Below are positions 8,566-62,479 of a DNA stretch of 64,000 bases, one piece after another; the first letter of the stretch is position 1; every line of letters begins with the position of its first letter. The notes under the pieces are model-generated. The model made no database searches and was not told where the DNA came from. It saw only the letters and a program-made list of their open reading frames with translations. This stretch comes from Nematostella vectensis (Eukaryota), in NCBI RefSeq assembly GCF_932526225.1, contig NC_064039.1, forward strand, positions 6,257,459 through 6,321,458. Direction: 5' to 3'. A program made the position numbers and the translations under genes.

Positions 8566-8577
8566 TTTGTTTCCATA

Positions 8578-13014: not shown

Positions 13015-13365
13015 AAACAAAATGCGGTGGAAACCTGACATCAATGTCAGGCGTCATCACATCCCCAAACTACCCCGACGCCTACCCTCGCTTCCTGGAA
13101 TGTACCTGGACAATCCATCCGCGAAGAGGGCGCAACATCTTGCTTCTTATTCCAAGTATCTCGCTTCCGACCACGCCCGACTGCTCGGACTATCTGACGA
13201 TGCGGGAGAGTTCGAGTCCTTACTCTGTGTTTACATATTACGCGTGTGAGTCCTTCGATCAGCCCGTGGCGTTAGTGTCACGCTCCAAGAACCTCCATAT
13301 CAAGTTTAAGTCGAGCCAGAACAGCATGGCGGAGGGATTCAAAATATTTTATGTCACATTTGAAG
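13015..13365 (+). CDS. duplicate copy of the CUB exon
   Basis: identical protein apart from 1 substitution; donor GAAG|GTAGGT conserved. Confidence 0.35.
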
Positions 13366-45748: not shown

Positions 45749-46300
45749 AGTAGTAGGGTTTTGGCGCAGCTGGCGCAACTTTTTGATCTCCCCAAATTTC
45801 ATTCCAAAAGTGGCGCAAAAGTCTCCGCACACCTCCGCCAAGCCTCGCGACCTGCGCATGCGCGAGTTTGCCAGAGATCTCTCGCACGACCAAGCCCACC
45901 TGTCAATCACTTTGTCACGTGACGGCCACGCCCACCTGTCAATCACTTTGTCACGTGACGGCCACGCCCACCTGTCAATCACTTTGTCACGTGATAGCCA
46001 CGCCCACCTGTCAATCATTTTGTAAAAAACCTGTCAATCACTTTGTCACGTGATGACCACGCCCACCTGTCAATCATTTTGTCAAAAACCTGTCAATCAC
46101 TTTGTCAAAAACCTGTCAATCACTTTGTCAAGAACCTGTCAATCACTTTGTCAAAAACCTGTCAATCACTTTGTCAAGAGCCTGTCAATCATTTTGTCAC
46201 GTGATAGCCAAGCCCACCTGTCAATCACTTTGTCACGTGCTGCACCTAGGGGGAGCCTGGGGGCTATTCTGGTCTAAAGACGTATGAGACCCTAGATAAA

Positions 46301-46561
46301 ATGACATTAAAGACGGAGGTGAAGATTAAAAACGGTGCGGCTACCGCCGGCGGTTGTTCGGTGCCGGAGGTGAACGTGAGTAACACTGCGGATGCGGGGC
46401 CTGAACACTGCTGTTGTAACGCTGATTACTATGAAGACTCAGAATACGGAAGCTTCGACCCCGTTGGGTTTGTGGCCGGAGCGGCGACAATTGTCCTTGG
46501 TGTTCTAGCAATGTTAGTCTCCATGCCACGGTATGGCGAAAAAAGATGGGTGAGATACTAG
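46301..46561 (+). CDS. small hypothetical membrane protein (86 aa, one TM) encoded inside the left-TIR-specific insertion
   Basis: ORF with upstream TCTAAAGACG promoter-like motif; TM FVAGAATIVLGVLAMLVSM. Confidence 0.3.
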   Translation: MTLKTEVKIKNGAATAGGCSVPEVNVSNTADAGPEHCCCNADYYEDSEYGSFDPVGFVAGAATIVLGVLAMLVSMPRYGEKRWVRY

Positions 46562-46703
46562 TCCACGGATGTGGTGCGGAGGCTTTAGACCGCACCGCCC
46601 CCACGCGGACCCCTTCGGAAGTCTTAGCAACCACACACATCACACCCAGAGGGAGCTCGAGGGGCTAGCCTCTCAGCTTCACATCTAAAAAAGCTTTTGA
46701 AAA

Positions 46704-46716
46704 GTGGTTTAAAGAC
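46704..46716 (+). promoter_or_regulatory. conserved promoter motif GTGGTTTAAAGAC 18 nt upstream of the TFIIB-like gene ATG
   Basis: identical motif and spacing at 47752-47764 (ankyrin), 48651-48663 (Cys-rich) and reverse-complement 61839-61852 (pPolB). Confidence 0.6.
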
Positions 46717-46733
46717 ATGAACAGTTTAATAAA

Positions 46734-47660
46734 ATGGAGGAACGAACAGTTGAACGTACGGCTGAAGATCGGTCACCACCACCATATAATATCCTCGGCG
46801 GACCGGTGCCTGAGATTAACGCCCCCACCCTCATGCCGGAATTTGCACTGTTTGACCGAGCCCTCACCGAATACGAGACTAGTAGAGCCTCCTTGGGAGA
46901 CGAGGATAGTAGTAACACCCTTTGCAATCATGGCGACCTAGTCACAGAGGACGGGGTCACTAGTTGCTTAGAGTGCGGGGAACAGATGCAGCGCGTGATC
47001 GCGCACGAAAGGGAATGGGGTTTTTACGGACATTCCGACGGCGAACGGTCTTCGGATCCAAGTCGGGTCCAGGTACGTAGGTCTGAGGATAGAAATATTG
47101 ACAAGGATGTGGAGAACATGGGTTTTAGCGGGGTAATTGTATCCAAAGCTAACGAGATATACACTCAGGTGACGAAAGGCCAGATTTTTCGCGGCGACCC
47201 ACGGAAGGCGGTCGTCTTTGCGTGTATCTACTACGCCTACAAGATGTCCGGTAAGTGTCAGACACCGAAAACCTTGATGGAAACTTTTGGATTGAGCAGG
47301 AAGAGTTGCCTTAAGGGTCTAAAAATCTTTAGTATTAACGTGCCTAAAGATTACTTACTACACGGAACGTCTCCCACCGTCGTGGACCACATTCACGATG
47401 TGATGGATAGATTCTCGGCGTCCCCCGCACAGAAGGGAGAGGTGGTCCAGCTCTACTACAGATCTAAGAACCGCTCGTCTGAGTTGAATCGCGCTCGCCC
47501 ACAATCCTTTGCGGTCGCTTTAACCTATTACTGGGTACGGCTAAAGGGGGTCGATATTACACTTAAAAAATTCTCCGAAAGAACGGGCGTCTCCGAGTTA
47601 ACCATCAGTAGGAAAGCGAGAGAAGTGGCCACAGTCCTGGGTACGCCTGGTGTGGTATGA
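46734..47660 (+). CDS. TFIIB-like transcription initiation factor (N-terminal Zn ribbon C-x-H-x15-C-x2-C, B-reader/linker, two cyclin-like repeats, C-terminal HTH)
   Basis: LCNHGDLVTEDGVTSCLECGEQ…EREWGFY parallels TFIIB [24 protein letters not shown]…GSEWRTF; core ANEIYTQV…AVVFACIYYAYKMSG…TLMETFGLSRKSCLKGLKIF parallels TFIIB cyclin repeat 1. Confidence 0.8.
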   Translation: MEERTVERTAEDRSPPPYNILGGPVPEINAPTLMPEFALFDRALTEYETSRASLGDEDSSNTLCNHGDLVTEDGVTSCLECGEQMQRVIAHEREWGFYGHSDGERSSDPSRVQVRRSEDRNIDKDVENMGFSGVIVSKANEIYTQVTKGQIFRGDPRKAVVFACIYYAYKMSGKCQTPKTLMETFGLSRKSCLKGLKIFSINVPKDYLLHGTSPTVVDHIHDVMDRFSASPAQKGEVVQLYYRSKNRSSELNRARPQSFAVALTYYWVRLKGVDITLKKFSERTGVSELTISRKAREVATVLGTPGVV

Positions 47661-47664
47661 TGTT

Positions 47665-47688
47665 TCCTGATTTCCAGAGAAATCAGGA
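47665..47688 (+). terminator. perfect 10-bp stem/4-nt loop hairpin 5 nt after the TFIIB-like stop codon (TCCTGATTTC-caga-GAAATCAGGA)
   Basis: seen in sequence; a similar hairpin follows the Cys-rich gene. Confidence 0.35.
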
Positions 47689-47751
47689 TTTCCAGAAAAC
47701 TGTCAGTTCGGAGTAGATGTGAATTAACACGTCTAAAGAAATTCGAAAAAA

Positions 47752-47764
47752 GTGGTTTAAAGAC
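47752..47764 (+). promoter_or_regulatory. promoter motif GTGGTTTAAAGAC 18 nt upstream of ankyrin gene ATG
   Basis: see 46704. Confidence 0.6.
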
Positions 47765-47781
47765 GTGGATGTAATAACAAA

Positions 47782-48606
47782 ATGGATATGCAAAGTGCTG
47801 GAAGTCTTACAAATCTCACCGTGGAGGATCAAGCCGCCACCTTAGCGAGGTGGGGAGCCGCAGACTTTGACGCCGTTATGGAGCGCGCGGCGTGGGAGGG
47901 GTGCGTCGAGACCGTGAGGTTGTGTAAGAGTTGGGGTGCGACGGATTTCGAAAAGCCGATGGTCAGGGCCGCAATGAACGGCCACACCGAGATCGTTAAG
48001 ATGTGTTGTGAGTCGGGCGCCTGTGACTTCGTGTATCCAGCGTCCATGGCCGCGAAAGGCGGGCACGTAGAGGTTTTGAAGGTGATGGGCGAGTATTGTG
48101 CCGACGGAGGAGAGGCCATGACCGAGGCCATGGGTGCTGCGGCGGCGGAAGGTCAGGTGGGGGTTGTTGAGTTGTTGATAGATCTAGGTGTCGATGTCGA
48201 TGTCGGTTGGGCCACCGCTGAGGCGGCGTACAATGGGCACGTTGAGGTTCTGAAGCTGCTGAGAGAAAACTTCTGGGAGTTTGACCCGGACTATGCTATA
48301 ACACCAGCCATCGAATCTCGCAACCTCGAGATTGTGAGGTTGTGCTTGGAGTGGGGCGCGACCGATCTCATTGTACATATGAACTACGCACGGTTTTGGC
48401 ATCTGCATAAGATTTTCGCGGTGCTACGTGCGGCGTGGGGGTGGAGTCTTGTGCATGAGGAGCTCCCGGAGAAGCTACACAAGGTGAGATTCCGTAGAAA
48501 GCTGGAGGACGAACTAATGCCAGTAGCTTGGCATCCGGACAGGTTTTGGGATTGGTGCATGGATGAGCAAGAGAAGGAAATGTTGGGAGAATGCTTCGCC
48601 AGGTAG
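47782..48606 (+). CDS. ankyrin-repeat protein (at least 5 ANK repeats: …AAMNGHTEIVKMCCESGA…, AAKGGHVEVLKVM, AAAEGQVGVVELLIDLGVDV, AAYNGHVEVLKLL, …NLEIVRLCLEWGA)
   Basis: repeated ~33-aa ANK consensus (A.-G----V--LL--GA). Confidence 0.8.
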   Translation: MDMQSAGSLTNLTVEDQAATLARWGAADFDAVMERAAWEGCVETVRLCKSWGATDFEKPMVRAAMNGHTEIVKMCCESGACDFVYPASMAAKGGHVEVLKVMGEYCADGGEAMTEAMGAAAAEGQVGVVELLIDLGVDVDVGWATAEAAYNGHVEVLKLLRENFWEFDPDYAITPAIESRNLEIVRLCLEWGATDLIVHMNYARFWHLHKIFAVLRAAWGWSLVHEELPEKLHKVRFRRKLEDELMPVAWHPDRFWDWCMDEQEKEMLGECFAR

Positions 48607-48650
48607 ACGCCGACCGGCTAGAAGGCGGGTATCGCGTGTTGGATTGAAAA

Positions 48651-48663
48651 GTGATTTAAGGAC
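48651..48663 (+). promoter_or_regulatory. promoter motif GTGATTTAAGGAC abutting the first ATG of the Cys-rich gene. The 60 bp around it duplicates the pPolB promoter/5' end.
   Basis: AAAGTGATTTAAGGACATGACCGGTTTGATAGAAATGGAGAAC versus AAAGTGGTTTAAAGACATGACTGGTTTGATAGAAATGGAGAAC (pPolB). Confidence 0.6.
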
Positions 48664-49011
48664 ATGACCGGTTTGATAGAAATGGAGAACCAAACGGTGA
48701 AAGACTCGAAAGTATCCCCCGTAAAGCGAACAACGGATTATAAGTGTCTTCATGGCAGAGTGAAATATTATTGCAAAGATTGTCACGGATCGCAAATCTG
48801 CCCTCACAACCGGAGAAAAACGCGGTGCAGAGAATGTAACGGCGGTAGCATTTGTGAGCACAGACGAGCAAGATATGTCTGTAAAGACTGCAAGGGGAAA
48901 GGGATGTGTGAACACAGCAAACAGAGACCCTTTTGTAAGTTATGCGGAGGGTCTCAAATATGCGAACACGATAGACAAAAGCACCATTGCAGAACGTGTA
49001 ACGGAAATTAA
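48664..49011 (+). CDS. basic Cys-rich protein with four tandem zinc-knuckle-like modules C-x2-C-x5/6-C-x-H-x6-C. Putative nucleic-acid-binding/core protein. N-terminal MTGLIEMEN shared with pPolB.
   Basis: CKDCHGSQICPHNRRKTRC / CRECNGGSICEHRRARYVC / CKDCKGKGMCEHSKQRPFC / CKLCGGSQICEHDRQKHHC; K/R/H-rich. Confidence 0.65.
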   Translation: MTGLIEMENQTVKDSKVSPVKRTTDYKCLHGRVKYYCKDCHGSQICPHNRRKTRCRECNGGSICEHRRARYVCKDCKGKGMCEHSKQRPFCKLCGGSQICEHDRQKHHCRTCNGN

Positions 49012-49026
49012 CATTGACCCACTCAG

Positions 49027-49053
49027 TTTTGTAACGCGTCTCACGTTACAAAA
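49027..49053 (+). terminator. 10-bp stem hairpin (TTTTGTAACG-cgtctca-CGTTACAAAA) 16 nt after the Cys-rich gene stop
   Basis: seen in sequence. Confidence 0.35.
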
Positions 49054-49208
49054 CACATACATTCCTAATCACCCTAACAACTAGCGATTCTGAAAATAGG
49101 TTTTGTATTTACATTGAGAGTTCGCGGTCGCCAGGGTGGTCTGGTATGCACGTGAACAGGTATTGTCTTCTTGCGGTACGTCACATCCGTCCACATGCAC
49201 CCCGCATG

Positions 49209-50735
49209 TTACCGGAATAGATACCAAGCTAAACCAGCCGTAAAGGCTGTGATCGTGACAAGGTTATTTTCGTGCTGCGTGTTCGTGGGTTTAATCACGT
49301 CCGGCTTTGGGTTAGTTTTCGCCTCCGGTTCCGGTTTGTGAGCCGTGACTGACTCGGTATGAGGTAACACAATCTTTGAATGACCCATATTATGTTTAGG
49401 GATCGTTTTTATCTCGTTATTTATCGGATTCAGCCCCAGTTTCATATCAGTGGTGGCTTTTTGTAACTTGTTATTATAGCCAGCGATCGAAGTGTTGTTA
49501 TTTATCACAAGATACGATGGACTTAACCAACAGCCGAGGGCGAAAGCTAGGTCTAGTTTTTGTCTCGCCTGTTGTAAAGCAAACTGATACCGTTGTATAC
49601 TTTTCGATATACTGTTTTCCACCACCGCGCTTTCGAAGAGTTTCGTGAAGACCTGTTTCGTTTCCTGAGCTGAACCGCTATCGCCGACGATTGACGACCG
49701 GGTCTGAACTTGCGCGCCTAGAATACAGTAGACAAAGGCTTCGATGCTCTGGTTTATCCTAGACAACCCAGCTTTGGTTAACCCCATTGATTTTTCCGGA
49801 AAGAACCACTCATACTGAAACCCAGTTCTAAGGTCTTTCAGGTACTCGATCTCAAAGTGATTCATGTGTTCGTGGTCGCTTTTGGCAGCGTCCCATTCGT
49901 CGTGTAATTGATCAATGGTGCCATAAGGCTTATACTTGTCGTTAGAAGATGACAAGCCGTGATAATCATAATTATAAACGTTCCCTAACCCGTGATTTAT
50001 CGGTCTGAGGAACCGGAAATCGTCACCAGTTCGGAATTCTGTTCTTAGTTTTTGGTAAGCCGCTTCGCTGTAAAAGTTTTTATTCCAACTAAAGAGCCTA
50101 TCTTTTGGAAGAGGGCATTGTAGCTCGTTTAATATTCGTCTGATAGTGAAAATGATGTGAAATCTGTAGAATGACCCCACTTGAGAGTCGTCAATCATGT
50201 CACGCGTCACACCACATCCAGCAGTCGCGCAAAACATAGCAAAATTTAAGGCTTGACTCCAATAACTGAGGTTTGGGGCGTCGAGCCACCTACTAGCCTC
50301 CTTTGCTGTTCTGAATACTAGCAAGCTGTCGGTGAATATGTCCCTAAAAACAAAGTGTGTCTTCACCTTTGGTGTTATAAAAACATTAAAAGAGACGTAA
50401 TTATTTCTCGTAGGGTTTTCGTCCCACGGCAATATCTTGTACTCTGCACGCGCGTCTAGTCTGTATTGTTTTGGGAACCCAAACAGTTGCTGGATCGTTT
50501 CCTTGTATGCTTGTGTGTCGTCGGCGACTAGAAAATCCTGGATATTCTCGGGTTTCCAGCTATTACCAGGGAAGTGATATAACGTTTTGACTAGATTCCC
50601 ATTCTTGTCGAATGGATCGTATTCGTCCCCATTGAAAACGAATTGCACATTGCCGTGCCCGTCGGCAGAGAACCTGAAGCGTGAGTAGTAGGGGTACCTT
50701 TTCACAAATTCTGTAAACTTCATCTTATATGACAT
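49209..50735 (-). CDS. hypothetical 508-aa protein with C-terminal transmembrane anchor (LVTITAFTAGLAWYLFR); no recognisable family
   Basis: long intact ORF with GATTTAAAAACATC promoter-like motif upstream; second in-frame ATG (M5) has the canonical spacing. Confidence 0.6.
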   Translation of the reverse strand: MSYKMKFTEFVKRYPYYSRFRFSADGHGNVQFVFNGDEYDPFDKNGNLVKTLYHFPGNSWKPENIQDFLVADDTQAYKETIQQLFGFPKQYRLDARAEYKILPWDENPTRNNYVSFNVFITPKVKTHFVFRDIFTDSLLVFRTAKEASRWLDAPNLSYWSQALNFAMFCATAGCGVTRDMIDDSQVGSFYRFHIIFTIRRILNELQCPLPKDRLFSWNKNFYSEAAYQKLRTEFRTGDDFRFLRPINHGLGNVYNYDYHGLSSSNDKYKPYGTIDQLHDEWDAAKSDHEHMNHFEIEYLKDLRTGFQYEWFFPEKSMGLTKAGLSRINQSIEAFVYCILGAQVQTRSSIVGDSGSAQETKQVFTKLFESAVVENSISKSIQRYQFALQQARQKLDLAFALGCWLSPSYLVINNNTSIAGYNNKLQKATTDMKLGLNPINNEIKTIPKHNMGHSKIVLPHTESVTAHKPEPEAKTNPKPDVIKPTNTQHENNLVTITAFTAGLAWYLFR

Positions 50736-50813
50736 ATAAGATGTTTTTAAATCAGTCCTTTACGCATCTCAATTCATAGATCCATCCGACGGGAGTTCTC
50801 TCGTACAGAAATT

Positions 50814-51419
50814 TCACCGAGCGGGTCGACTCGCCAGGTCTTTCAAAATCTCTTCTCTTACTGTTTCCCTCAGCTTGGTAATGTTTACGTTTTTTTCGTC
50901 CTCTCTTACCGACTTTTGACGGATCTGGAGCTTTAGAGCCTCAAACTTGTCCACCTCGTTCAAGATTAAAGAGAACTCTTCGTCTGATATTTTGTTGTCT
51001 TTTAAAGCTTTAGAGACCAGGTCGCGTATGCTATTTACTTTTGCCTTTGCCATCGCCGCTGTTTGGTCGTGCTTGGAGACTTTTTGCGACAGCCGTTTAG
51101 AAACCGCCGCACAGCCTACAGACGTAAGACCGAAAACACCGGCCAAAGCACCCAACGGAACTCCGACGACGATACCAAAACCTGACAGAGAAGTCCCCAA
51201 ACCACTAGACCCAAGAATGACGGATAAGAGTCCTAAGACCACACTTAACTTTGAAAACACGCTCTGCCCTCGTTTATACTTTTTCCTCACGTTCTCGTAA
51301 TGTTTAACTTCTTGCTCCAAACTTCCCAAAACATCGTGGGTCTTTTGGAGTCTGAAGTTATCACCCGAGGGGCTGACCCCTCGGGGTACGTTCGGGTAGA
51401 TTGAGTTGTACTCTTCCAT
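50814..51419 (-). CDS. hypothetical membrane protein (201 aa, two glycine-zipper TM helices, C-terminal coiled coil)
   Basis: ORF plus upstream CACTTAAAGAAT motif. Confidence 0.55.
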   Translation of the reverse strand: MEEYNSIYPNVPRGVSPSGDNFRLQKTHDVLGSLEQEVKHYENVRKKYKRGQSVFSKLSVVLGLLSVILGSSGLGTSLSGFGIVVGVPLGALAGVFGLTSVGCAAVSKRLSQKVSKHDQTAAMAKAKVNSIRDLVSKALKDNKISDEEFSLILNEVDKFEALKLQIRQKSVREDEKNVNITKLRETVREEILKDLASRPAR

Positions 51420-51446
51420 AGCTTTATTATGGGGAGAATTTATTCT

Positions 51447-52070
51447 TTAAGTGATTTCTAAAATTAGACGTATCGGGTAGAGACCGCGCTCTATTGTGTT
51501 TCCGTCACCACCCTTTATACTAAGACGGAGACTACTCACGTAACCGACTGATGTGGTGCTAACCCGTACCGGATCGCTTGGATTGAGGTATATCTTTCCT
51601 TCATCAAGCTCTACACTTGCTAGGATTTGTGAGGGCGCCCCTTGTTGGAGGGAGTCAGACGCGTTCACAAGATCGCAGTGGATAAAAATAGCCTCGTGAC
51701 CTATCATCTTTATCTCGTGGCGAGTGTTTGCTTCCAGCTCCCTGGTCTTGAGTCCTAACAGGCAGGCGAGCGGCTCATTCAACGCGACGTTCCGGTGAAC
51801 TTCGAGTGACGAGTCTCTAATAGAGACTGACTTTTCACCAAGACGCATACCCCCATCTATTTGACGTTTTAGCGTCTCGATCGTATACTGCCCCGCGGGG
51901 ATCCTAAGGATAATGTTCTCACCGTCGGAGACCGTTCCCTCGCTTGAGAGACTGTTACAACGATTATGAAACGCACATCCTCGCAGCGCGATAAACCGCG
52001 GCTTTTCAATAGGTTGTTCTAAATAGACAGTAAAGTCACCAACGTTTCCTTCAATGTAGAGTAATACCAT
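51447..52070 (-). CDS. hypothetical beta-rich 207-aa protein; candidate single-jelly-roll minor capsid (penton) protein
   Basis: size, position in the virion-gene block and alternating hydrophobic pattern; upstream GATTTAAAAGGAGAC motif. No motif-level recognition. Confidence 0.45.
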   Translation of the reverse strand: MVLLYIEGNVGDFTVYLEQPIEKPRFIALRGCAFHNRCNSLSSEGTVSDGENIILRIPAGQYTIETLKRQIDGGMRLGEKSVSIRDSSLEVHRNVALNEPLACLLGLKTRELEANTRHEIKMIGHEAIFIHCDLVNASDSLQQGAPSQILASVELDEGKIYLNPSDPVRVSTTSVGYVSSLRLSIKGGDGNTIERGLYPIRLILEIT

Positions 52071-52073
52071 TTG

Positions 52074-53096
52074 TTATGATTTCCGTCTCCTTTTAAATCG
52101 TTCTACGGAATACAGGACGACAGCGACGATGAGAAGCCATGCGTTTTTAGCTAAAAAGCCAACAACTTCACCTGCCGTTCTAAATATGAAACTAGCTATA
52201 GCACCAACCATTCCTGGGAGTATTTCTCCTAATTTTTTGCCTATTGTTTTCAGACCATTTCCAACACCTTTTGCAACACTAGTCAGCCCAGCTTTCAGAT
52301 TAGAGACAATAACACCGATAACAACGCCCACAGCGGTAACGACAGCAGCGACTGTAAATCCGTATTTCTTAAAAATCGCTTTGACACGATCTTTCAACGA
52401 CATTCTCTCTTCAAGATTTTCTCTCTCCAATTGATTCTCTTCCAAAGTCTCATCTATGACAGAATTTCTTTCGCTGAGCTCTTCATTTTTACGATCTATA
52501 GCTCTTAGTCTTTCTTGGTTAGTTGTTTCACTTCGTTCCTCATTATTTTTTCTCATTTGCTCGGTGTTTCTCTCTTCTTCTTCTCTGAGTGTATTACCTG
52601 TAGCGTCTAGTTCATCGAGTTGAATCTGAATTTGCTTGTACTTTCCGGATCTGATTTTGTCGTCAACACTCTTCCGCACCGTTCTATCCTCATTATACAA
52701 CCTTTCTGGTCTAGTCCAACCACCTTTTCTCGCAGAATAGAAGGAAATGAATTGTTTTCCTCTCTCATCCGTTGAAATCTGAACTAGATTTTCATCAAGA
52801 TCTGGATATTTCGATAACAAAAGGTCTACCCTAAGTGTGTCCGTTGAAGGAGAACCTCCCATATTCTGTAACTCCATGTACTCGGGGACAGCCCTCCCGG
52901 GGTTTCGTGTTTTCCATAAGTCAGTCAACCTCCTACTCACATAGCTTGCACCTCTACCAAATCTGTTTGAAATCCTTTCATTCCATGATTCTCTTCCCTC
53001 ACCATCGTTTGGAATAAGAGAGTCATAATCTTCGTCTACAGTAGTATTCAAATCTTCTCTACCTTCTTCTGTTGTGGGATCAAAATCTATATCCAT
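52074..53096 (-). CDS. hypothetical 340-aa protein: acidic N-terminus, E/R-rich coiled coil, C-terminal multi-TM region
   Basis: ORF plus upstream GACTTAAAGATTT motif. Confidence 0.55.
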   Translation of the reverse strand: MDIDFDPTTEEGREDLNTTVDEDYDSLIPNDGEGRESWNERISNRFGRGASYVSRRLTDLWKTRNPGRAVPEYMELQNMGGSPSTDTLRVDLLLSKYPDLDENLVQISTDERGKQFISFYSARKGGWTRPERLYNEDRTVRKSVDDKIRSGKYKQIQIQLDELDATGNTLREEEERNTEQMRKNNEERSETTNQERLRAIDRKNEELSERNSVIDETLEENQLERENLEERMSLKDRVKAIFKKYGFTVAAVVTAVGVVIGVIVSNLKAGLTSVAKGVGNGLKTIGKKLGEILPGMVGAIASFIFRTAGEVVGFLAKNAWLLIVAVVLYSVERFKRRRKS

Positions 53097-53140
53097 TTCT
53101 TATTTTGTTTGAAAATAAGAAATCTTTAAGTCGTGCCAGC

Positions 53141-53557
53141 TCATATCCACCTACTCGCTACATAGCCAAGGGCTAACATTCCACCTCCAACGTACGCCAT
53201 CTCTCCCATCTTTTGGTTGCTACTTGGTCTGTAGTAATCTGAGAGCTCAGGCTCTTTCAAATCAAAATCTGGATGTGTTTGAGCGTATAGTTTGAAAGCC
53301 TCATCCGTCTCTTTATCGTTCTCATCCGCACGAACTTTATCGTTGTATTGTTCAGTCAACCAATCCTGGTATTCCTGTCTTTTTTTCTGCCAATCACCCA
53401 TTGCTTGTTGATACTTTTCAAGCGCTTTATCGTGTCTTATTTTTTCTTTATCAACATGAGTAGCGTCAGAAGACAAGTATCTCGCTAGGTAACTCCCTCC
53501 GACAAACGCCGTCGCATTAATAAAAGCCCCACCAATCATAAATGCTATACTCGCCAT
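53141..53557 (-). CDS. hypothetical membrane protein (138 aa; N- and C-terminal TM segments)
   Basis: ORF plus upstream CGACTTAAAGATC motif 19 nt from ATG. Confidence 0.5.
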   Translation of the reverse strand: MASIAFMIGGAFINATAFVGGSYLARYLSSDATHVDKEKIRHDKALEKYQQAMGDWQKKRQEYQDWLTEQYNDKVRADENDKETDEAFKLYAQTHPDFDLKEPELSDYYRPSSNQKMGEMAYVGGGMLALGYVASRWI

Positions 53558-53589
53558 TTATTAATCAATCTATAAGATCTTTAAGTCGC

Positions 53590-53814
53590 CTACAGCGGTT
53601 TTGGCAAAATCTTTTGTGTTTCCAGATAATCTTTCAGATACATACTACCGGACAGGACAGCAACCCATTTAGCGTAGTTTGTAACACTTGACGAAGGGTC
53701 GCTGATGAATGACTCTTTCATAGCCTTTTTAGCAACATAACCCACGCCGGCGGCTAATCCGATGATGACTGCTGAGTCGGTGATCGTTTTCACAAGTTTG
53801 TTTTCAGTTGACAT
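53590..53814 (-). CDS. hypothetical small membrane protein (74 aa)
   Basis: ORF plus upstream GATTTAAAGATTATC motif, preceded by the 30-bp palindromic element. Confidence 0.45.
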   Translation of the reverse strand: MSTENKLVKTITDSAVIIGLAAGVGYVAKKAMKESFISDPSSSVTNYAKWVAVLSGSMYLKDYLETQKILPKPL

Positions 53815-53849
53815 GATTTTATTTATTACAGATTCAGATAATCTTTAAA

Positions 53850-54311
53850 TCACAACATTCCTATTTTTGGCGTCGCGTTCGGGAGGCTAGCCCCTCGAGC
53901 TCCCCCTAGGTGGGAGGTGGGTCTCCCAAGAGTTTCGGCCTCGTTGACGTTAATCTTAGACGGCTCGCCCTCTTTCTTTTTGTAAAAACGCATATACATA
54001 TCCAATGCGGTGAGCCCTATTCCAACTAGAGCCAGTACAGTTGTAAACGATAGCTCTGGAATCCAAGCGTCCGAGAGGCTATCCCCTCGAGCTCCCTCTT
54101 GGTGGGGTGTCTCTGCTCGTGCAGCGTCTTCTGAACTCGCCTCCGCCTCGCGTTTCATCTCCCTAGCAAGTGCTTCTCTACACCTCCTATTATATTCGGC
54201 AACTCTCTTACCAGAAGCGACTTTTATAGGATCTTTCTCCTTAGCGGCACTCTTCTTCCTGGGGGGAGGGTCCTTTGTGATTTGCTCAACCTCTTGATTT
54301 TCGTCAGACAT
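53850..54311 (-). CDS. hypothetical 153-aa protein, basic N-terminus plus one TM
   Basis: ORF plus upstream GATTTAAAGATTC motif. Confidence 0.5.
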   Translation of the reverse strand: MSDENQEVEQITKDPPPRKKSAAKEKDPIKVASGKRVAEYNRRCREALAREMKREAEASSEDAARAETPHQEGARGDSLSDAWIPELSFTTVLALVGIGLTALDMYMRFYKKKEGEPSKINVNEAETLGRPTSHLGGARGASLPNATPKIGML

Positions 54312-54453
54312 GATTCTTTACTCACTGAATAAAGAATCTTTAAATCACATCATGCTCAAGAGCTTGCTCAGTTGTGCTCAAGAGCTTGCTCAGGTGTGCT
54401 CAAGAGCTTGCTTAGGTGTGCTCAGGTGTGCTCAAGAGTTTGCTTAGGTGTGC

Positions 54454-54981
54454 TCAGGTGTGCTCAAGAGTTTGCTCAGTTGTGCTTGAAACTTCTTGAA
54501 GTTTGTTGGAAGTCTCCTGTGAAGGTGTTAGTTTAACATGCTTAGCGACCCGAAAGATGGCACTAGCAAGTGCTACCATCCTTCCTCCCTTCAATACCAA
54601 GAGACCTGCAAAGTTTGACAATTCGCGTTTAACCAACTCGTCGTTCTGTAAGTCTTTGCTAAGCGCTTCGGTGTCATCTACAGGAACCACGTAGGAAATG
54701 ACTTGAGACACCACTTGAAGTGCTGATTCTACTAATCCATCAGTAACTTGTTTGCCTAAGACAGTCTGGTAGCGAACAAAGTACTTTTCGACGTCTTTCG
54801 CCGGGAGCTTCTTGATGTCCCCTAAACTCATGTCCACACCAAGAAATTCCTTCGTAGTCCCAAGAGATGCGAGAATAGCCAGCGATTCTCGTTTGACTTC
54901 AACATCGTCTTCGAGAGGCTCACCCTTCGAGCTCCCCTTAGACTTAGGCTCCTCTTCCATATAATCCTCAATGCTTGCCAT
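54454..54981 (-). CDS. hypothetical 175-aa acidic protein (likely start MASIEDYMEEE…; the six-frame ORF extends to 55047)
   Basis: AAGTGGTTTAAAAACATC motif lies 25 nt upstream of the internal ATG at 54981, and the 30-bp palindrome abuts it. Confidence 0.5.
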   Translation of the reverse strand: MASIEDYMEEEPKSKGSSKGEPLEDDVEVKRESLAILASLGTTKEFLGVDMSLGDIKKLPAKDVEKYFVRYQTVLGKQVTDGLVESALQVVSQVISYVVPVDDTEALSKDLQNDELVKRELSNFAGLLVLKGGRMVALASAIFRVAKHVKLTPSQETSNKLQEVSSTTEQTLEHT

Positions 54982-55043
54982 CTTATTTTGTAAGTAGACC
55001 AAGATGTTTTTAAACCACTTCGAGGGGTCAGCCCCTCGAGCTC

Positions 55044-55670
55044 TCACCGCGTGGCAGGAATCTCCAAATAACGTTGGAATGGATGTCGTAGGCAGAAACA
55101 GAGTCTGGAATACTTTTCAGTTTTCAGCAGTTCTACAAACTTTTTACGAGTCTCAACGTCTAAGTCACCCCCATAATCTTCAAACAGTGTTTTGGTACCG
55201 ATTTGAGATGGATTATGGAATGTAACCACACAGGCGACGTTATCACGGAAGGGCTTTGCTATGGATGTTAATTGTTGCGTCAATACCCACACTGATAATC
55301 CTTCGTGTCTCCCTGAGAACGCTAAATTGATAAACTTGTTCGAGCGTTGCTTTAGATCTTTCGATACAGCACAGTCATCCAAAACGAGTAACGTATTTGT
55401 ACCAGAAAATAGCACCGCACAATCTGTTAGTAACTCGTTAATCTCATCGGTGTTACTAGCATCCGGCGATAATACCAAGAAACGTTTATCTCCGTGAGCA
55501 AATCTACGATAGGACTTGTTTTTCGCATAAGTCGGACAAATCAACACAATGTATTCAAACACATGCCGGAACGGCCCTCGGAGCTGTTCCGTGAGGTACT
55601 TTGTCTTCCCACAATTAGTAGGTCCTGTGATAATACAATGAAAAGGAACTTTTTCCCGTAATTCTTCCAT
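55044..55670 (-). CDS. FtsK/HerA-superfamily (A32-like) genome-packaging ATPase; Walker A GPTNCGKT, Walker B LLVLDD. Likely start MEELREK (the ORF call 55044..55691 starts on a non-ATG codon).
   Basis: P-loop and hhhhDD motifs, ~210 aa, location next to capsid gene as in Polintons/virophages. Confidence 0.85.
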   Translation of the reverse strand: MEELREKVPFHCIITGPTNCGKTKYLTEQLRGPFRHVFEYIVLICPTYAKNKSYRRFAHGDKRFLVLSPDASNTDEINELLTDCAVLFSGTNTLLVLDDCAVSKDLKQRSNKFINLAFSGRHEGLSVWVLTQQLTSIAKPFRDNVACVVTFHNPSQIGTKTLFEDYGGDLDVETRKKFVELLKTEKYSRLCFCLRHPFQRYLEIPATR

Positions 55671-55698
55671 TCTTTTTGTATTATCACACAAGTCCTTT

Positions 55699-56937: not shown

Positions 56938-56970
56938 CTTTTATTTTAAGAAAAGAGAGATAATCTTTAA
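56938..56970. promoter_or_regulatory. 33-bp bidirectional promoter between MCP (-) and integrase (+): TTTTAAGAAAAGAGAGATAATCTTTAAA carries the TTTAAAGA-type motif in both orientations
   Basis: palindromic arrangement TTTAAGA…TCTTTAAA. Confidence 0.5.
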
Positions 56971-57963: not shown

Positions 57964-60900
57964 CCGTGAGCGAAGGTGTGAATACCATCATCACAGATGA
58001 CCCGTTTATCATCCTCATGAGATAGAGCGACCTTGTTCACCGTTTCAGTGTAAACATCATGCTTATGACTTCTGATGACATTCATAAGTCTCATCTGAGG
58101 TTTCTTACCAAATAAGCAATCCTTGTAGTCATCGAAACCGATGCTCTTCTTGACGACTGCTCTCTTGACGCCCTTGCATTTCTTTTCTTCTTTACCTTCA
58201 TCCATCTTGTACGAGTAAAGTTTGGCCCTCAGTCCTACAAATTCTGTGATTTGCTGGCCCCCAGCCTCATCTTTAAACATTCCGATGACTTTCTTGTTCA
58301 CACCCACCTCAATACCAGATGGGTGACCCTTCGGAAAGTTGCTGGTGTCGAACATGGACCTCACATCCCCGCTGATGTCCTCGTAAAAGTCTTTCGTCTC
58401 GATCTCATACATCAGGCTGTCAGTATCAGTGAATAAGAGCTTTGCATCCTCACCGTACTTAGGCTTGACGAAGTTGTAGTGGAAATCGTACATGAGCGTC
58501 TTACTCAGGTCCAGAATGGACATACCCAAGTAGACAGGCTTGTTGAAGATCAGCTTTGTCTTCTTCATGTGGATGGCGGCTAGATTCTCGCAAAAGATGG
58601 TGCGATGTTGATAGTTCGGCTTTGATATGAGCTTCTTGGCCTGCTTCTCGTCCGTCACCAACCGAATGTCCACCCTGTTCCTAATGTTCTCCATAGTCTT
58701 ACCAAAGACGGAGTTGTTCATTAACTTGAAAAAATCTTTCTCAAAATCGTTTGTCGCCTTGGCTCTCAGATCGGTGTTCAAGTCAATGTAGGGCTCCAGC
58801 CAAGCAGACTCCTCAAAAGTGACACCCCTGTGAATCTTGGTGACTTTTAGCCCAAAACTCACATAAAGTCTCAGAGTCTCATGGTGGATAACGTACTTTG
58901 TCTTGTCGTTAAGGTTGGGGACCAACTTGTCCACATTGCCTAGCCCGATAGATTCCGGGGCTAGTGGGTAATCGTTGTGTAAGTCATGTAGGTGGTGAGG
59001 GTACTCCAAGTCAACCTCCAGAATGCATGGGCGGTCTCTCCAACCTGACAGCTCTTGGTCACCCATCCACCTGAAACCGTGAGTCGGTAAAGGGTTGCTC
59101 ATCGCCCAGCCATACAAATTGTTAGCATCAAGGTAGGTGATATATTTTGTGGGTAGGTCAGGGTCATACTCCTTCATGTAAGGGTTATTTGCCTCCCCAT
59201 GTCTGTTGCTTATCATGGAGACACCCCCACGGATGCCCTTCTCAATCATGAGCAACATGTCATAGTCCGTTAGAAGCTCTAGCCTCACCTTGGTGGTCTT
59301 CAACGCTGCATCCCAAGCCAACCCTGGCGCTGTGTAGTACCAAGCGGGGTCCAGACCGTAATTCTTGAGACAAACGTCCCTAAAGTTCTCGAAAACGTCA
59401 GCTAAAAGCAACACATCCGACTCTAGGTACAGATTGTGGTAATCCCTCATGGTCCCCATCCCAAAGGCCTCCCACACTCTCCGCGCGTGCAGGTGATCCT
59501 CCTCCGATATGTCGGTGTCGTTGAGTTTGGAGTGGAACGCCTCTCTCTGTGGGAGCTGTGTTGCGTCGAGCTTGCTAAAGCCGTCGAACCAGTCGTAAGG
59601 GAAAACACCCTTCCTCAACAACAGCTGAAGCTCCTCCCCCTCATAGTACTCCGCCAGGTTTTTGAAGCACTCCCTTGACATATTACCCACTAGACTGTCG
59701 AGACTGGCCGACATAAACCTGAAACTGTCGATAAATCTGATATCACGTTTAACATCAATCTTGTTGCCCTCCTTGTTCGTGAAACTGTCGACTACAATCT
59801 GTTTTGTGAAAGAAATATACTTTTCCTCGTTATTAGGTATACAGTTTATTTTACCTTCCGATGTACCAAGGTTCTTGATAAATAGATGGCTGTCGTACCC
59901 AGACAGATTGTGAAAGATAACAGGAAAGAACTTTGGAATTTTGTGATCTAAGTTGCATGCGTTGTGAGCAGCACCTCTGTACTTCCCTGTAAGGTGGCAA
60001 TGGTCCAAAACCTTGTCTTCCCCTAATTCACCCTCACAGATGTGGCAGTGAGTGGCGTCGTTATAGGCGATTTTGTCCTTCGGAGTCATTTTCACCTTCT
60101 TAGGGAACCTGAACTTATCATAAATTTTCTTAATGTCTGACTCCAAAGACTCTACGAAAAGCTGTGGGATATCTTCGTCTGGAGATTCAGCTGTGTATCG
60201 TACAAGCTCGGATGGGGATATATCTCCGTCGAAACACTTGATGAGATAGCAGAAACCAGACGGTTTGTGTTTCTGGTATTGCTTAGTGAAGCTTTTACTC
60301 TCATCTGGGGAGCATGTGTCTATATTCTCTGTGAAGCTCTCAAAGTCGGCGTAGACAACAAAGGGGACACGCATTTTTCTGTTGTAGTTTTTGAATTTAA
60401 TGTGGGGTAGATTTCCATCCTTATCTATCTTAGGCATCTCTATTCCAACCGCTTCATGATTGCCGCAGCATTCAGAATGTTTTTCTAATGATTGTTTGCA
60501 CCGAAACGAGTTCAGACATCTACAGCATAAAAAACGAGTATGATGAAACTCATCAATTTGAGTAGATACTAATCTCATCATATTCTTTATCCAGCAGTAA
60601 TGATTCGTCTCATCATCCGAGATGAGAAGTAAGTTGATTGCATTATCTGGATCCTTCTCACTGATTCTCAATGGATATATTTTGGTTTCGTATCCAAACA
60701 CATTAACCGTATACTGGTTCTGTTTCTCGAACTTGTCAATCTGTTTTAGTGAGACGGGGAACTCTATCCCTGACCAGTCGAATTTCTCAGAGCTCTCTAT
60801 CATTTGTTTACTGAACCTTTGAGGATCTTTCTCCCTAGGATACACAGCAGAGGTTACTGCCCACTTGAAACATTCGTGATCATTCTCGTTCTTAACATTG

Positions 60901-61838: not shown

Positions 61839-62383
61839 GTCTTTAAACCACTTTTCAAAAGCTTTTTTAGATGTGAAGCTTAGAGGCTAGCCTCCCGAGC
61901 TCCCCCTAGGTGCGACACGTGACAAAGTGATTGACAGGTGGGCTTGACTATCACGTGACAAAGTGATTGACAGGTTCTTGACAAAATGATTGACAGGTTC
62001 TTGACAAAATGATTGACAGGTTTTTTACAAAGTGATTGACAGGTGGGCGTGGCTATCACATGACAAAGTGATTGACAGGTTTTTGACAAAGTGATTGACA
62101 GGTGGGCTTGGCCGTCACGTGACAAAGTGATTGACAGGTTTTTTACAAAGTGATTGACAGGTGGGCTTGGCTATCACGTGACAAAGTGATTGACAGGTGG
62201 GCTTGGCTATCACGTGACAAAATGATTGACAGGTGGGCTTGGTCGTGCGAGAGATCTCTGGCAAACTCGCGCATGCGCAGGTCGCGAGGCTTGGCGGAGG
62301 TGTGCGGAGACTTTTGCGCCACTTTTGGAATGAAATTTGGGGAGATCAAAAAGTTGCGCCAGCTGCGCCAAAACCCTACTACT
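61839..62383. repeat. right TIR (545 bp) with ~12 TGATTGACAG-containing subrepeats and 4-5 CACGTG boxes
   Basis: reverse complement of left TIR. Confidence 0.9.
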
Positions 62384-62479
62384 CCCTCAAGCATCTTAGA
62401 GAGCCCTCAAAAGAGAGACAAAAAAATAACACTTTGCAAATAAAAACAAATTCTAGGGTTGTTTAGAATAAGATTGATT

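What the first reader, a model, noticed from the sequence alone, without database searches (positions are those of the whole stretch)
46640..55050. Dispersed 30-bp palindromic element CACCTAGGGGGAGCTCGAGGGGCTAGCCTC (7 copies), several immediately upstream of promoters
The core GAGGGGCTAGCCCCTC is a perfect 16-bp palindrome. Copies lie at:
- the inner edge of both terminal inverted repeats, ~40 nt upstream of the TFIIB-like and pPolB promoters;
- 53877-53915, ~25 nt upstream of the 74-aa gene promoter;
- 55020-55050, abutting the promoter of the 175-aa gene;
- 54060-54095, 54905-54935 and 51365-51390, inside coding sequence.
In the left terminal inverted repeat the palindrome is split by a ~395-bp insertion. 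Candidate roles are an upstream activating or repressor-binding site, a recombination/resolution site, or a hairpin 3'-end signal.
Basis: seen in the sequence. Interest (0 to 1): 0.6.

Follow-up and report, generated by a model that had tools for sequence, protein, structure and literature searches.

The report
Spreading palindromic repeat in Nematostella Polinton
A 35-base GC-rich palindromic sequence has recently copied itself to about eight places, including in-frame inside genes, within one virus-like transposon (Polinton) lineage of the sea anemone Nematostella; close relatives lack it, so it looks like a small selfish repeat and not a conserved control element.

Summary
The repeat is real. 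There are six full copies and two partial copies, all inside one 16.6-kb Polinton (window 45750-62384) and none in the other 47 kb. About 0.01 copies are expected by chance.

The window's TFIIB-like protein is identical to a Nematostella vectensis RefSeq protein.

The repeat is not a conserved feature of the family. At every site I could align, the copy is an insertion of about 12-35 nt that closer or more distant relatives lack:
- The closest relative found (N. vectensis scaffold DS469574.1, 94% nt identity in MCP/ATPase) has two of the sites.
- Twelve other relatives (83-95% MCP identity) have none.
- One related fragment carries a copy in the opposite orientation.

Four copies sit in-frame in variable linkers of small proteins, in two different reading frames. 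In one of them the unit's own TAG has changed to GAG.

The left-end "split" is really an 86-aa gene cassette with its own promoter, flanked by a half copy and a full copy.

Best reading (about 0.55): a recently proliferating, RPE- or GC-cluster-like palindromic mini-insertion that also serves as recombination homology.

A cis-regulatory or 3'-hairpin role for the intergenic copies is not excluded. One orthologous copy kept 16/16 stem bases while 9/19 other bases changed.

The parts
45750..46261 (.). Left terminal inverted repeat (23/36-nt tandem units ACCTGTCAATCACTTTGTCA...), preceded by the 6-bp target-site duplication TCCCTC/CCCTCA
   Evidence: Inverted repeats I1-I4 are 92-97% complementary to 61894-62383. 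The flanking direct repeat is seen.
46243..46270 (+). L_out: half copy (CACCTAGGGGGAGC plus a degenerate right half CTGGGGGCTATTCT) that abuts the promoter-like box of the 86-aa gene
   Evidence: Sequence; weak profile hit.
46259..46657 (+). 399-bp insert relative to the right end. It is a cassette with a promoter-like box, an 86-aa membrane-protein ORF (46301-46561) and a hairpin after the stop. It ends with a second copy of the 14-nt 5' arm (CACCCAGAGGGAGC).
   Evidence: Left and right ends compared. No homolog in any fetched relative. Hairpin after the stop, -16.8 kcal/mol.
46643..46677 (+). L_in: full copy at the inner edge of the left terminal repeat, 25 nt upstream of the TFIIB-like gene's promoter-like motif (46702-46716)
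   Evidence: Sense-strand RNA fold -17.0 against -12.7 kcal/mol antisense.
51364..51385 (.). Core-only copy: the perfect palindrome CCCGAGGGGCTGACCCCTCGGG (9-bp stem). It lies in-frame in codons 12-19 of the 201-aa gene, 62 nt past the 207-aa gene's stop. Net +12 nt relative to N. vectensis DS469574.1.
   Evidence: alignment with L130.
53878..53912 (-). Full copy, in-frame (..HLGGARGASLPN..) in the variable C-terminal tail of the 153-aa gene. It lies upstream of the conserved TPKIGML* end and about 20 nt upstream of the 74-aa gene's promoter-like box. Absent from L130, L008, L004 and L003.
54070..54104 (-). Full copy, in-frame (..HQEGARGDSLSD..) in the linker before the transmembrane helix of the 153-aa gene. 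Net +21 nt against L130. Shares CACC on the left and CGGA on the right with the empty site.
   Evidence: None of 88 homologous proteins carries the encoded peptide.
54910..54944 (-). Older, more diverged copy, in-frame in a different reading frame (..SKGSSKGEPLED..) near the N-terminus of the 175-aa gene. The unit's TAG is changed to GAG. Shared with L001 and N. vectensis L130; absent from L008, L004 and L003.
55019..55053 (-). Intergenic copy with a perfect 8-bp stem. It supplies the ATPase stop codon (TGA) and abuts the 175-aa gene's promoter-like box (55006-55020). Shared with L001 and L130; absent from L007, L008, L004 and L003, where the ATPase stop lies inside GTGATTTAAA.
61878..61912 (-). 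R: full copy at the inner edge of the right terminal repeat, 22 nt upstream of the pPolB promoter-like motif (61839-61853)
61894..62384 (.). Right terminal inverted repeat
59949..60080 (-). Endonuclease VII-like (HNH) segment inside pPolB (residues 587-630). This is only a candidate link to the palindrome and is not shown to act on it.
   Evidence: Pfam PF02945 scores 26.2 bits against a cut-off of 23.6. It is also present in the L130 pPolB and absent from the pPolBs of L005 and L133.

Best explanation
The motif is a young, lineage-restricted repeat of about 35 bp: a 14-nt arm plus a 20-nt GC-rich palindrome. It has been copied step by step to new places inside one Polinton/Maverick lineage of Nematostella vectensis.

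Copies survive in two kinds of place where they do little harm:
- the few spacer bases between a stop codon and the next promoter;
- as in-frame additions, variable linkers and tails of small membrane proteins.

Shown here:
- The copies are insertions that are absent from orthologous sites in relatives.
- They accumulated in a nested order: two older sites shared with the reference N. vectensis copy, and at least three newer ones.
- They occur in both orientations across elements.
- They are read in two different frames.

Inferred:
- Copying works by a DNA-level copy-and-paste process, meaning template switching or short-tract gene conversion primed by 2-5 nt of microhomology. The hairpin that the palindrome forms in displaced single strands during protein-primed replication probably favours this.
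- The terminal-repeat copy is the likely source.
- Once dispersed, the copies act as portable homology for recombination, as in the 86-aa gene cassette at the left end.
- Any effect on transcription is secondary.
For: 1. Restricted to the element and far above chance.

2. Presence and absence at orthologous sites:
- 55019-55053 and 54910-54944 are present in L001 (99% nt identity in MCP) and in N. vectensis L130 (94%). They are absent from L007, L008, L004 and L003.
- 54070-54104, 53878-53912 and 51364-51385 are absent even from L130.
- Sources.
- Six coral-associated relatives (L133-L138) have none.
- None of 88 homologs of the 153-aa protein carries the encoded peptide.

3. L077, a related fragment, has a copy at the tail of the 153-aa gene in the opposite orientation.

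4. Coding copies keep the frame, with net +21, +15 and +12 nt, and keep the conserved downstream residues. Two reading frames are used. In the frame where the consensus has TAG, the copy reads GAG.

5. Copies within the element are often more alike than positional orthologs. L130's intergenic copy matches 53878-53912 at 29/35 but its own ortholog at only 26/35.

6. Junctions at 54070-54104 and 51364-51385 share 2-4 nt with the empty sites on both sides, and there is no fixed-length target duplication.

7. The left-end cassette is bracketed by a half copy and a full copy.

8. Modules recombine freely in this family. pPolB is only 22-25% identical between elements whose MCPs are 93-95% identical.
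Against: - No copying event or enzyme has been shown.
- Only two junctions are cleanly resolvable.
- All oriented copies in this element point the same way as local transcription. That is 5 independent copies, p about 0.03 if orientation were random. This hints at an RNA-level or transcription-linked constraint.
- Between the window and L130, the intergenic copy kept 16/16 stem positions while 9/19 other positions changed (Fisher p=0.0013). This suggests selection or self-correction of the stem.
- I could not scan the rest of the N. vectensis genome. A host repeat as the source is therefore not excluded.
Confidence: 0.55

Rival explanations
1. Newly evolved cis-regulatory site. The palindrome binds a dimeric factor, either host-encoded or element-encoded (for example the Cys-rich 115-aa protein or a partner of the TFIIB-like protein). 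It would activate or repress nearby promoters, like the dispersed imperfect palindromes (hr) of baculoviruses.
For: - Five of eight copies end 0-25 nt upstream of the promoter-like box AAGTGGTTTAAAGAC.
- Both outermost promoters (TFIIB-like and pPolB) have one.
- The stem of the intergenic copy is unchanged between the window and L130 while its surroundings diverged.
- L130 carries a different GC-rich 26-bp palindrome at the same place upstream of the pPolB promoter.
Against: - Relatives with the same promoters and genes work without it.
- Three copies lie inside ORFs away from promoters.
- One related copy is inverted.
- With spacers of 30-60 nt, any tolerated intergenic insertion must lie just upstream of a promoter.
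- There is no covariation or conservation signal beyond common descent.
Confidence: 0.15
2. RNA hairpin that marks transcript 3' ends or acts as a terminator or insulator between tightly packed genes, as in the Mimivirus 'hairpin rule'. It would have been spread because it is a useful module.
For: - 55019-55053 begins at the ATPase stop. 46643-46677 follows the 86-aa gene. 51364-51385 lies 62 nt past the 207-aa stop.
- Stable local structure is enriched just after stop codons in this element (median -12.3 against -8.8 kcal/mol, p=0.02).
- Five of six perfect hairpins of at least 8 bp lie 5-71 nt after a stop.
- The sense strand folds better than the antisense in 5 of 7 copies because of G-U pairs.
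- The element carries a TFIIB-like gene whose nearest non-Nematostella relatives are in giant-virus-like contigs.
Against: - 54070-54104 is in the middle of an ORF, and 53878-53912 and 54910-54944 are inside ORFs. Ending transcripts there would truncate the genes.
- Relatives show no hairpin enrichment after stops (L133, L004, L008, L130: p=0.18-0.96).
- Hairpin-rule signals are diverse in sequence, whereas this is a single repeated sequence.
- Fold z-scores are modest, from -2 to +1.
Confidence: 0.12
3. Dedicated site-specific recombination site that captures gene cassettes (integron attC-like) or resolves replication intermediates.
For: - The 399-bp cassette with its own promoter and ORF is flanked by a half motif and a full motif, as expected after recombination between two motif copies.
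- The palindrome can form a hairpin or cruciform.
- This lineage's pPolB carries an Endonuclease VII-like segment.
Against: - There is only one such cassette.
- No tyrosine or serine recombinase is encoded.
- The segment between 54070-54104 and 53878-53912 is conserved ancestral coding sequence, not a cassette.
- Ordinary homologous recombination between repeats explains the same picture.
- L003 has fragments of Endonuclease VII-type pPolB but no palindrome.
Confidence: 0.08
4. Fragment of an abundant host genomic repeat that happened to land in this element several times, or a chance or assembly artefact.
For: - The rest of the N. vectensis genome could not be scanned.
- One unrelated low-complexity metagenome contig shares 22 nt with the left-end copy.
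Against: - There are no copies in the 47 kb of flanking host DNA or in the flanks of L130.
- The same insertions are seen in independent assemblies: L001 from a JGI metagenome, L130 from the 2007 reference assembly, and L077.
- A metagenome scan gave only single, mostly GC-rich bacterial hits at about the chance rate.
Confidence: 0.05

Closest known systems
Rickettsia palindromic elements (RPE; Ogata et al. 2000, recalled from my own knowledge; mentioned in PMC1779305, found)
   Same: A dispersed palindromic repeat that inserts in-frame into protein-coding genes, adding a peptide segment without destroying the protein. Its distribution among close relatives is patchy. No transposase of its own is known.
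   Different: RPEs are about 100-150 bp and occur in a bacterial chromosome. Here the unit is about 35 bp and lies inside a eukaryotic virus-like transposon. No sequence similarity is claimed or was tested.
Mitochondrial GC clusters, e.g. GC42 of Saccharomyces (PMC4478555), and hairpin elements of fungal and sponge mtDNA
   Same: GC-rich palindromes of 30-50 bp in a more AT-rich compact genome. They turn over rapidly in presence and absence between close relatives, merge and shuffle their arms, take part in homologous recombination, and have an unresolved copying mechanism.
   Different: GC clusters live in organelle genomes, show a putative AG target duplication, and are mostly intergenic. 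Here I saw no fixed target duplication, and half the internal copies are coding.
Baculovirus homologous regions (hr), recalled from my own knowledge
   Same: Imperfect palindromes of about 30 bp dispersed in a dsDNA virus genome near promoters. This is a model for an enhancer or origin role.
   Different: hrs are tandem clusters in intergenic DNA, are conserved in position among related viruses, and bind IE-1. Here the units are single, several are in ORFs, and they are not conserved among relatives.
Mimivirus 'hairpin rule' 3'-end signals (Byrne et al. 2009, recalled from my own knowledge; shared regulatory elements of giant viruses, virophages and transpovirons in the abstract of PMC11464507)
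   Same: A hairpin directly after a stop codon in a tightly packed virus-like genome. The element carries a TFIIB-like gene related to giant-virus genes.
   Different: Hairpin-rule signals differ in sequence from gene to gene and do not sit inside the gene's own ORF. Relatives of this element show no such rule.
Integron attC sites, recalled from my own knowledge
   Same: An imperfect palindrome bracketing an inserted gene cassette.
   Different: Only one cassette is seen, it has its own promoter, and there is no integron-type tyrosine recombinase.

Membership tests
Polinton/Maverick (the host element) | [quoted passage not shown] | tested here: met
   rve scores 32.6 bits. The 1308-aa ORF aligns with Polinton pPolBs, including the DTDS motif. 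L133's homolog hits DNA_pol_B_2. The window protein itself does not reach Pfam DNA_pol_B_2 at E<0.01.
Polinton/Maverick (the host element) | Capsid module: double jelly-roll MCP and A32-type packaging ATPase | tested here: met
   Pox_A32 at E=3.7e-11. Capsid_N is only weak (E=0.0036, below the cut-off). There are 755 MCP homologs at E<=1e-10.
Polinton/Maverick (the host element) | Terminal inverted repeats and a 6-bp target-site duplication | tested here: met
   TIRs of about 500 bp are 92-97% complementary. TCCCTC/CCCTCA flanks both ends.
Polinton/Maverick (the host element) | Adenovirus-type cysteine protease | tested here: not met
   No Pfam hit in any ORF. No structure-based search was done.
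RPE-like / selfish in-frame palindromic repeat | Multiple dispersed copies of one palindromic sequence, far above chance | tested here: met
RPE-like / selfish in-frame palindromic repeat | Insertion into ORFs that preserves the reading frame and the downstream conserved residues | tested here: met
   Four copies, with net +21, +15 and +12 nt. Two reading frames are used, and TAG is changed to GAG in one.
RPE-like / selfish in-frame palindromic repeat | Empty and filled orthologous sites among close relatives | tested here: met
RPE-like / selfish in-frame palindromic repeat | Sequence homology to a described RPE family; length of 100-150 bp | tested here: not met
   The unit is about 35 nt. No Rfam family covers it. 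There was no direct comparison with RPE consensus sequences.
Mitochondrial GC clusters | GC-rich palindrome of 30-50 bp with sporadic distribution and rapid turnover | tested here: met
   The unit is about 70% GC in a 40-50% GC element. Turnover is shown.
Mitochondrial GC clusters | Resides in a mitochondrial genome; putative dinucleotide target-site duplication | tested here: not met
   The element is a nuclear-integrated Polinton. The junctions show variable 2-4 nt microhomology, not a fixed duplication.
MITE | Terminal inverted repeats plus a fixed target-site duplication plus an autonomous partner transposase | tested here: not met
   No consistent duplication at three resolvable sites. 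The unit is shorter than typical MITEs. No partner was identified.
Baculovirus hr-type enhancer/origin | Positionally conserved intergenic clusters of palindromes among related genomes | tested here: not met
   The units are single, half lie in ORFs, and relatives lack them.
Baculovirus hr-type enhancer/origin | Binding by a viral transactivator and enhancer activity | not testable with these tools
   Needs EMSA and reporter assays.
Hairpin-rule 3'-end signal | A hairpin just downstream of the stop codon of most genes, across related genomes | tested here: inconclusive
   Window element p=0.02. Relatives p=0.18-0.96.
Hairpin-rule 3'-end signal | Transcript 3' ends map to the hairpin | not testable with these tools
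   No transcript data was available.
Integron attC-like recombination site | A site-specific (tyrosine) recombinase and arrays of cassettes each bounded by the site | tested here: not met
   Only an rve integrase is encoded. There is one cassette, and it was not found elsewhere.
Structured RNA family | Compensatory base changes that maintain the stem | tested here: inconclusive
   93% of cells are paired, but this is no better than column shuffles (153/500). There is one double change. The copies are too young to be informative.

The most novel reading that the evidence does not exclude
The palindrome is the substrate of the Endonuclease VII-like (cruciform/branch-cutting) segment embedded in this lineage's protein-primed polymerase. 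Cutting the extruded hairpin and repairing the break would do two things. It would copy the palindrome to new microhomologous sites, in a homing-like way. It would also let the element capture promoter-plus-gene cassettes such as the 86-aa gene. That would amount to a built-in gene-capture and self-spreading system in a eukaryotic virus-like transposon.
Probability: 0.07. Interest if true: 0.8.

Novelty: new variant of a known kind. Interest (0 to 1): 0.5.

Why it matters
Short palindromic repeats that spread without a known transposase are a long-standing puzzle. Examples are RPEs, mitochondrial GC clusters and bacterial REP-like elements. Their copying mechanism is still argued over (PMC4478555).

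If this reading is right, the Nematostella Polinton family offers a compact system of about 16 kb. N. vectensis RefSeq holds at least 33 TFIIB-like protein variants at 90% identity or more, which suggests dozens of near-identical copies in one sequenced genome. The same repeat can be caught at successive stages, with empty and filled sites to compare.

It would also show that Polinton genes can gain peptide segments and even new stop codons from such insertions. Dispersed copies may help these elements swap or acquire gene cassettes.

For annotation, the motif should not be taken as a family-wide promoter or terminator signal.

Tried and rejected
1. Conserved regulatory element: rejected as a family feature. 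Thirteen related loci were scanned, and only L001, L130 and L077 have any copy.

2. Protein-level repeat: rejected. The coding copies use two different frames.

3. Known RNA family: none covers the motif. A look-alike 35-mer recurs in GC-rich bacterial metagenome contigs, has no Rfam match, and seems unrelated.

4. Collection scans with GAGCTCGRGRGGCTRRCCYC:
- The viral collection gave 2 unrelated hits.
- The metagenome collection gave 119 single hits, mostly in about 65% GC bacterial DNA, roughly what chance gives. Only L077 and L120 (the same contig as L001) are Polinton.
- A 40-nt, 87.5% match in L105 lies in CA-microsatellite DNA, shows no similarity to the element's coding sequence (tblastx), and is treated as coincidence.

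5. Covariation test of the stem: uninformative.

6. 'Hairpin rule' across relatives: not found. The test is poorly suited to the AT-rich giant-virus contig.

7. Fetching other N. vectensis chromosome copies failed. RefSeq proteins P0209 and P0330 and two window proteins are not in the gene-position index. Copy-by-copy polymorphism within the genome could therefore not be tabulated.

8. Link between Endonuclease VII-type pPolB and the palindrome: only suggestive. L003 has that pPolB type without palindromes.

9. Programmed frameshift or readthrough at the ATPase stop plus hairpin: considered and dropped, because there is no slippery sequence (reading).

10. Cassette reading of the 192 nt between 54070-54104 and 53878-53912: rejected. 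That segment is ancestral, conserved coding sequence.

Full report
**Observation**

The repeat is real.
- The idealised 16-mer with up to 2 mismatches occurs 5 times, against 0.01 expected.
- The 30-mer with up to 3 mismatches occurs 4 times, against 0 expected.
- A profile built from the six full copies recovers those six at E<=1e-6: 46643-46677(+), 53878-53912(-), 54070-54104(-), 54910-54944(-), 55019-55053(-) and 61878-61912(-).
- The same profile finds a core-only copy at 51364-51385 and a half copy at 46243-46270. Nothing else in the 64-kb window scores below E=1.

- The perfect 16-mer never occurs exactly.
- The unit is about 35 nt and asymmetric: CACCTAGGGGGAGC followed by TCGAGGGG-CTAG-CCTCTCGA-A.
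- The terminal copies end 22-25 nt from the promoter-like motif.

**Context**

All copies lie in one 16.6-kb element, about 45750-62384.
- It is bounded by terminal inverted repeats of about 500 bp built from 23/36-nt tandem units.
- It is flanked by a 6-bp direct repeat, TCCCTC/CCCTCA.
- It encodes pPolB, an rve integrase, a capsid protein, an A32-type ATPase, a TFIIB-like protein, an ankyrin protein, a Cys-rich protein and several small membrane proteins.

This makes it a Polinton/Maverick.

The TFIIB-like protein is identical to Nematostella vectensis XP_048581547.1/XP_048584879.1. N. vectensis RefSeq holds at least 33 variants at 90% identity or more. The host is therefore N. vectensis, and the family is multi-copy.

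A promoter-like box, AAGTGGTTTAAAGAC, sits 20-30 nt before the ATG of nine genes.

**Comparative evidence**

I fetched relatives through capsid, 153-aa-protein and TFIIB homologs. Nucleotide identity to the window in MCP/ATPase:

| Locus | MCP / ATPase nt identity |
|---|---|
| L001 | 99 / 98% |
| L130 (N. vectensis DS469574.1) | 94 / 95% |
| L007 | 92 / 78% |
| L133 | 88 / 85% |
| L008 | 86 / 85% |
| L004 | 85 / 84% |

Alignments show that each copy is extra sequence relative to empty orthologous sites.

*Site 55019-55053.* In relatives the ATPase reading frame ends in the TGA of the next promoter box (..CCTGCT|GTGATTTAAAAG). In the window, L001 and L130, about 35 nt are inserted there, and the insert brings a new TGA.

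*Site 54910-54944.* The same three sequences share this copy.

*Sites 54070-54104, 53878-53912 and 51364-51385.* These are missing even from L130.

*Other relatives.* L007, L008, L004, L003 and six coral-associated elements (L133-L138) have no copy. None of 88 homologs of the 153-aa protein contains the encoded peptide.

*Inverted copy.* L077, a related fragment, has a copy near the end of the 153-aa gene in the opposite orientation.

The pattern is nested. Two older sites were gained first, then three or more newer ones, plus an independent inverted gain.

**Coding copies**

Four copies are read as protein and keep the frame, with net +21, +15 and +12 nt against L130. They also keep the conserved residues downstream: AWIPELSF....TPKIGML*, GDNFRLQK.., DDVEVKRESL...

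- Two copies are read as (H)xxGARGxSL.
- 54910-54944 is read one base off, as GSSKGEPLE. In that frame the consensus has TAG, and this copy has GAG.

The conservation is therefore at the DNA level, and stop-free variants were the ones retained.

**Junctions and the left end**

At 54070-54104 the empty site in L130 already reads ..CCCCACCTCAAAG|CGGAC... The filled site shares CACC on the left and CGGA on the right with it. At 51364-51385 the two share CC and TCG. No fixed-length duplication is seen. This fits template switching or short-tract conversion better than cut-and-paste, but it rests on only two clean junctions.

At the left end, the right-end sequence CACCTAGGGGGAGC|TCGGGAGG.. is interrupted after GAGC by 399 bp. 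The insert contains:
- a degenerate right half of the motif fused to a promoter-like box, the same layout as at 55019-55053;
- an 86-aa membrane-protein ORF;
- a hairpin;
- a second copy of the 14-nt arm, running into a full copy.

No other fetched element has this gene. This is what recombination between two motif-bearing molecules would leave.

Recombination of modules is clearly common in this family. pPolB is only 22-25% identical between elements with 93-95% identical capsid proteins.

**Tests for a function**

*Stem pairing.* It is 93% across 11 copies, but no better than column shuffles. The copies are too young to show covariation.

*Orthologous intergenic copy.* Between the window and L130, all 16 stem bases are unchanged while 9 of the other 19 differ (Fisher p=0.0013). 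This could reflect selection on the hairpin, self-correction of a palindrome, or independent insertions at a hot spot. L130's copy is closer to 53878-53912 (29/35) than to its positional ortholog (26/35).

*Orientation.* All oriented copies in the window point with local transcription (p about 0.03 for five independent copies). The sense RNA folds better in 5 of 7 copies.

*Structure after stop codons.* It is somewhat enriched in this element (p=0.02) but not in four relatives.

*L130.* It has a different GC-rich 26-bp palindrome upstream of the pPolB promoter.

These points keep a cis role alive for the intergenic copies. The mid-ORF copies, and the absence of the motif from relatives that have the same promoters, argue against a function that explains the whole family of copies.

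**Mechanism and ranking**

Most likely (0.55): a young, lineage-restricted palindromic mini-insertion.
- It spreads by a DNA copy process aided by hairpin formation in single strands displaced during protein-primed replication.
- It survives only in stop-to-promoter spacers and in tolerant protein linkers.
- It then serves as dispersed homology for recombination.
- The insertion status, nested order, orientation and frame usage are shown. The copying mechanism and source copy are inferred.

Rivals:

| Rival | Confidence |
|---|---|
| New transcription-factor site | 0.15 |
| 3'-end or insulator hairpin | 0.12 |
| Dedicated recombination site | 0.08 |
| Host repeat or artefact | 0.05 |

**Comparison with known systems**

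The repeat works most like two known kinds:
- Rickettsia palindromic elements, which insert in-frame as selfish palindromes.
- Mitochondrial GC clusters, which are 30-50-bp GC-rich palindromes with rapid turnover, arm shuffling and an unresolved copying mechanism (PMC4478555).

It is not a member of either. The size, host genome and junction type differ, and no Rfam family matches.

It also fails the defining features of MITEs, baculovirus hrs, hairpin-rule signals and attC sites that I could test. My literature searches found no report of such a repeat in Polintons.

**Limits**

- I could not retrieve the other N. vectensis copies or scan the host genome.
- Element-specificity therefore rests on 47 kb of flanks, on the flanks of L130, and on a metagenome scan that returned only chance-level hits outside Polintons.

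Noticed in passing
window 46734-47660 (+); L131 and L132 10001-10822: Outside N. vectensis, where five clusters share 83-96% identity, the closest homologs of the Polinton's TFIIB-like protein are only 60-70% identical. Many come from marine metagenomes. Two are on giant-virus-like contigs (IMG/VR GVMAG, 32% GC) whose neighbouring genes encode a protein kinase, a patatin and a NIF phosphatase. This suggests gene exchange between this Polinton lineage and a giant virus.
   Followed up: partly
window 57195-57262 (+): Strong Rfam match to the mir-9460 microRNA precursor (102.9 bits, gathering score 85, E=1.6e-24). It lies inside the rve integrase reading frame, so this miRNA family maps to a multi-copy Polinton gene.
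   Followed up: no
window 57912-61838 (-); L005 3-4310; L133 130-4269: Elements whose capsid proteins are 93-95% identical carry pPolB genes only 22-25% identical to each other. The window/L130 type has an Endonuclease VII-like segment. The L005/L006 and L133/L134 types have a GCxWHGC (Vsr-like) motif instead. The replication module has been swapped.
   Followed up: partly
window 46702-46716, 47750-47764, 48649-48663, 50743-50757, 53841-53855, 54336-54350, 55006-55020, 61839-61853: A conserved promoter-like box, AAGTGGTTTAAAGAC (core TTTAAAGA), lies 20-30 nt upstream of the ATG of nine genes. Relatives have it too.
   Followed up: partly
window 48644-48712 vs 61790-61858: The promoter and first 14 codons of pPolB (MTGLIEMEN..) are duplicated at the start of the Cys-rich 115-aa gene, 87% complementary.
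   Followed up: no
window 46565-46600, 47665-47688, 48605-48640, 49025-49060: Each of the four left-arm genes (86-aa, TFIIB-like, ankyrin, Cys-rich) is followed within about 15 nt of its stop by a distinct stable hairpin (-12.8 to -16.8 kcal/mol). The hairpin after the Cys-rich gene is conserved in L130.
   Followed up: partly
window 54343-54488: A 10/12-nt tandem repeat (TGCTCAAGAGCTTGCTCAGGTG..) spans the 3' end of the 175-aa gene and the spacer before the next promoter. Its copy number varies strongly among relatives and is much expanded in L003.
   Followed up: no
L130 3103-3128: The reference N. vectensis copy has a different perfect 26-bp GC-rich palindrome (CACCACTCCCCCTGGGGGGAGTGGTG) about 100 nt upstream of the pPolB promoter, where the window has the R copy.
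   Followed up: no
L133 130-4269 vs window: In the coral-associated relatives the pPolB gene is inverted relative to the capsid gene, compared with the window and L004.
   Followed up: no
window 44779-45732: A tandem duplication of about 547 bp (82-94% identity) lies immediately outside the left end of the element (families D7, D8, D11-D15).
   Followed up: no
L028, L038, L042, L058, L074 and others (metagenome loci): A 35-mer, ATAYCCCGGGGAGCTCGAGGGGCTGGCCCCTCGAC, recurs in many GC-rich bacterial metagenome contigs. It resembles the Polinton motif over about 25 nt, has no Rfam match, and is probably unrelated.
   Followed up: partly
window 36001-38000; 8566-8615 and 13002-13051: One 2-kb stretch has extreme strand skew (GC skew -0.54, AT skew -0.28). 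A pair of identical hairpin-containing segments lies 4.4 kb apart in the host flank.
   Followed up: no
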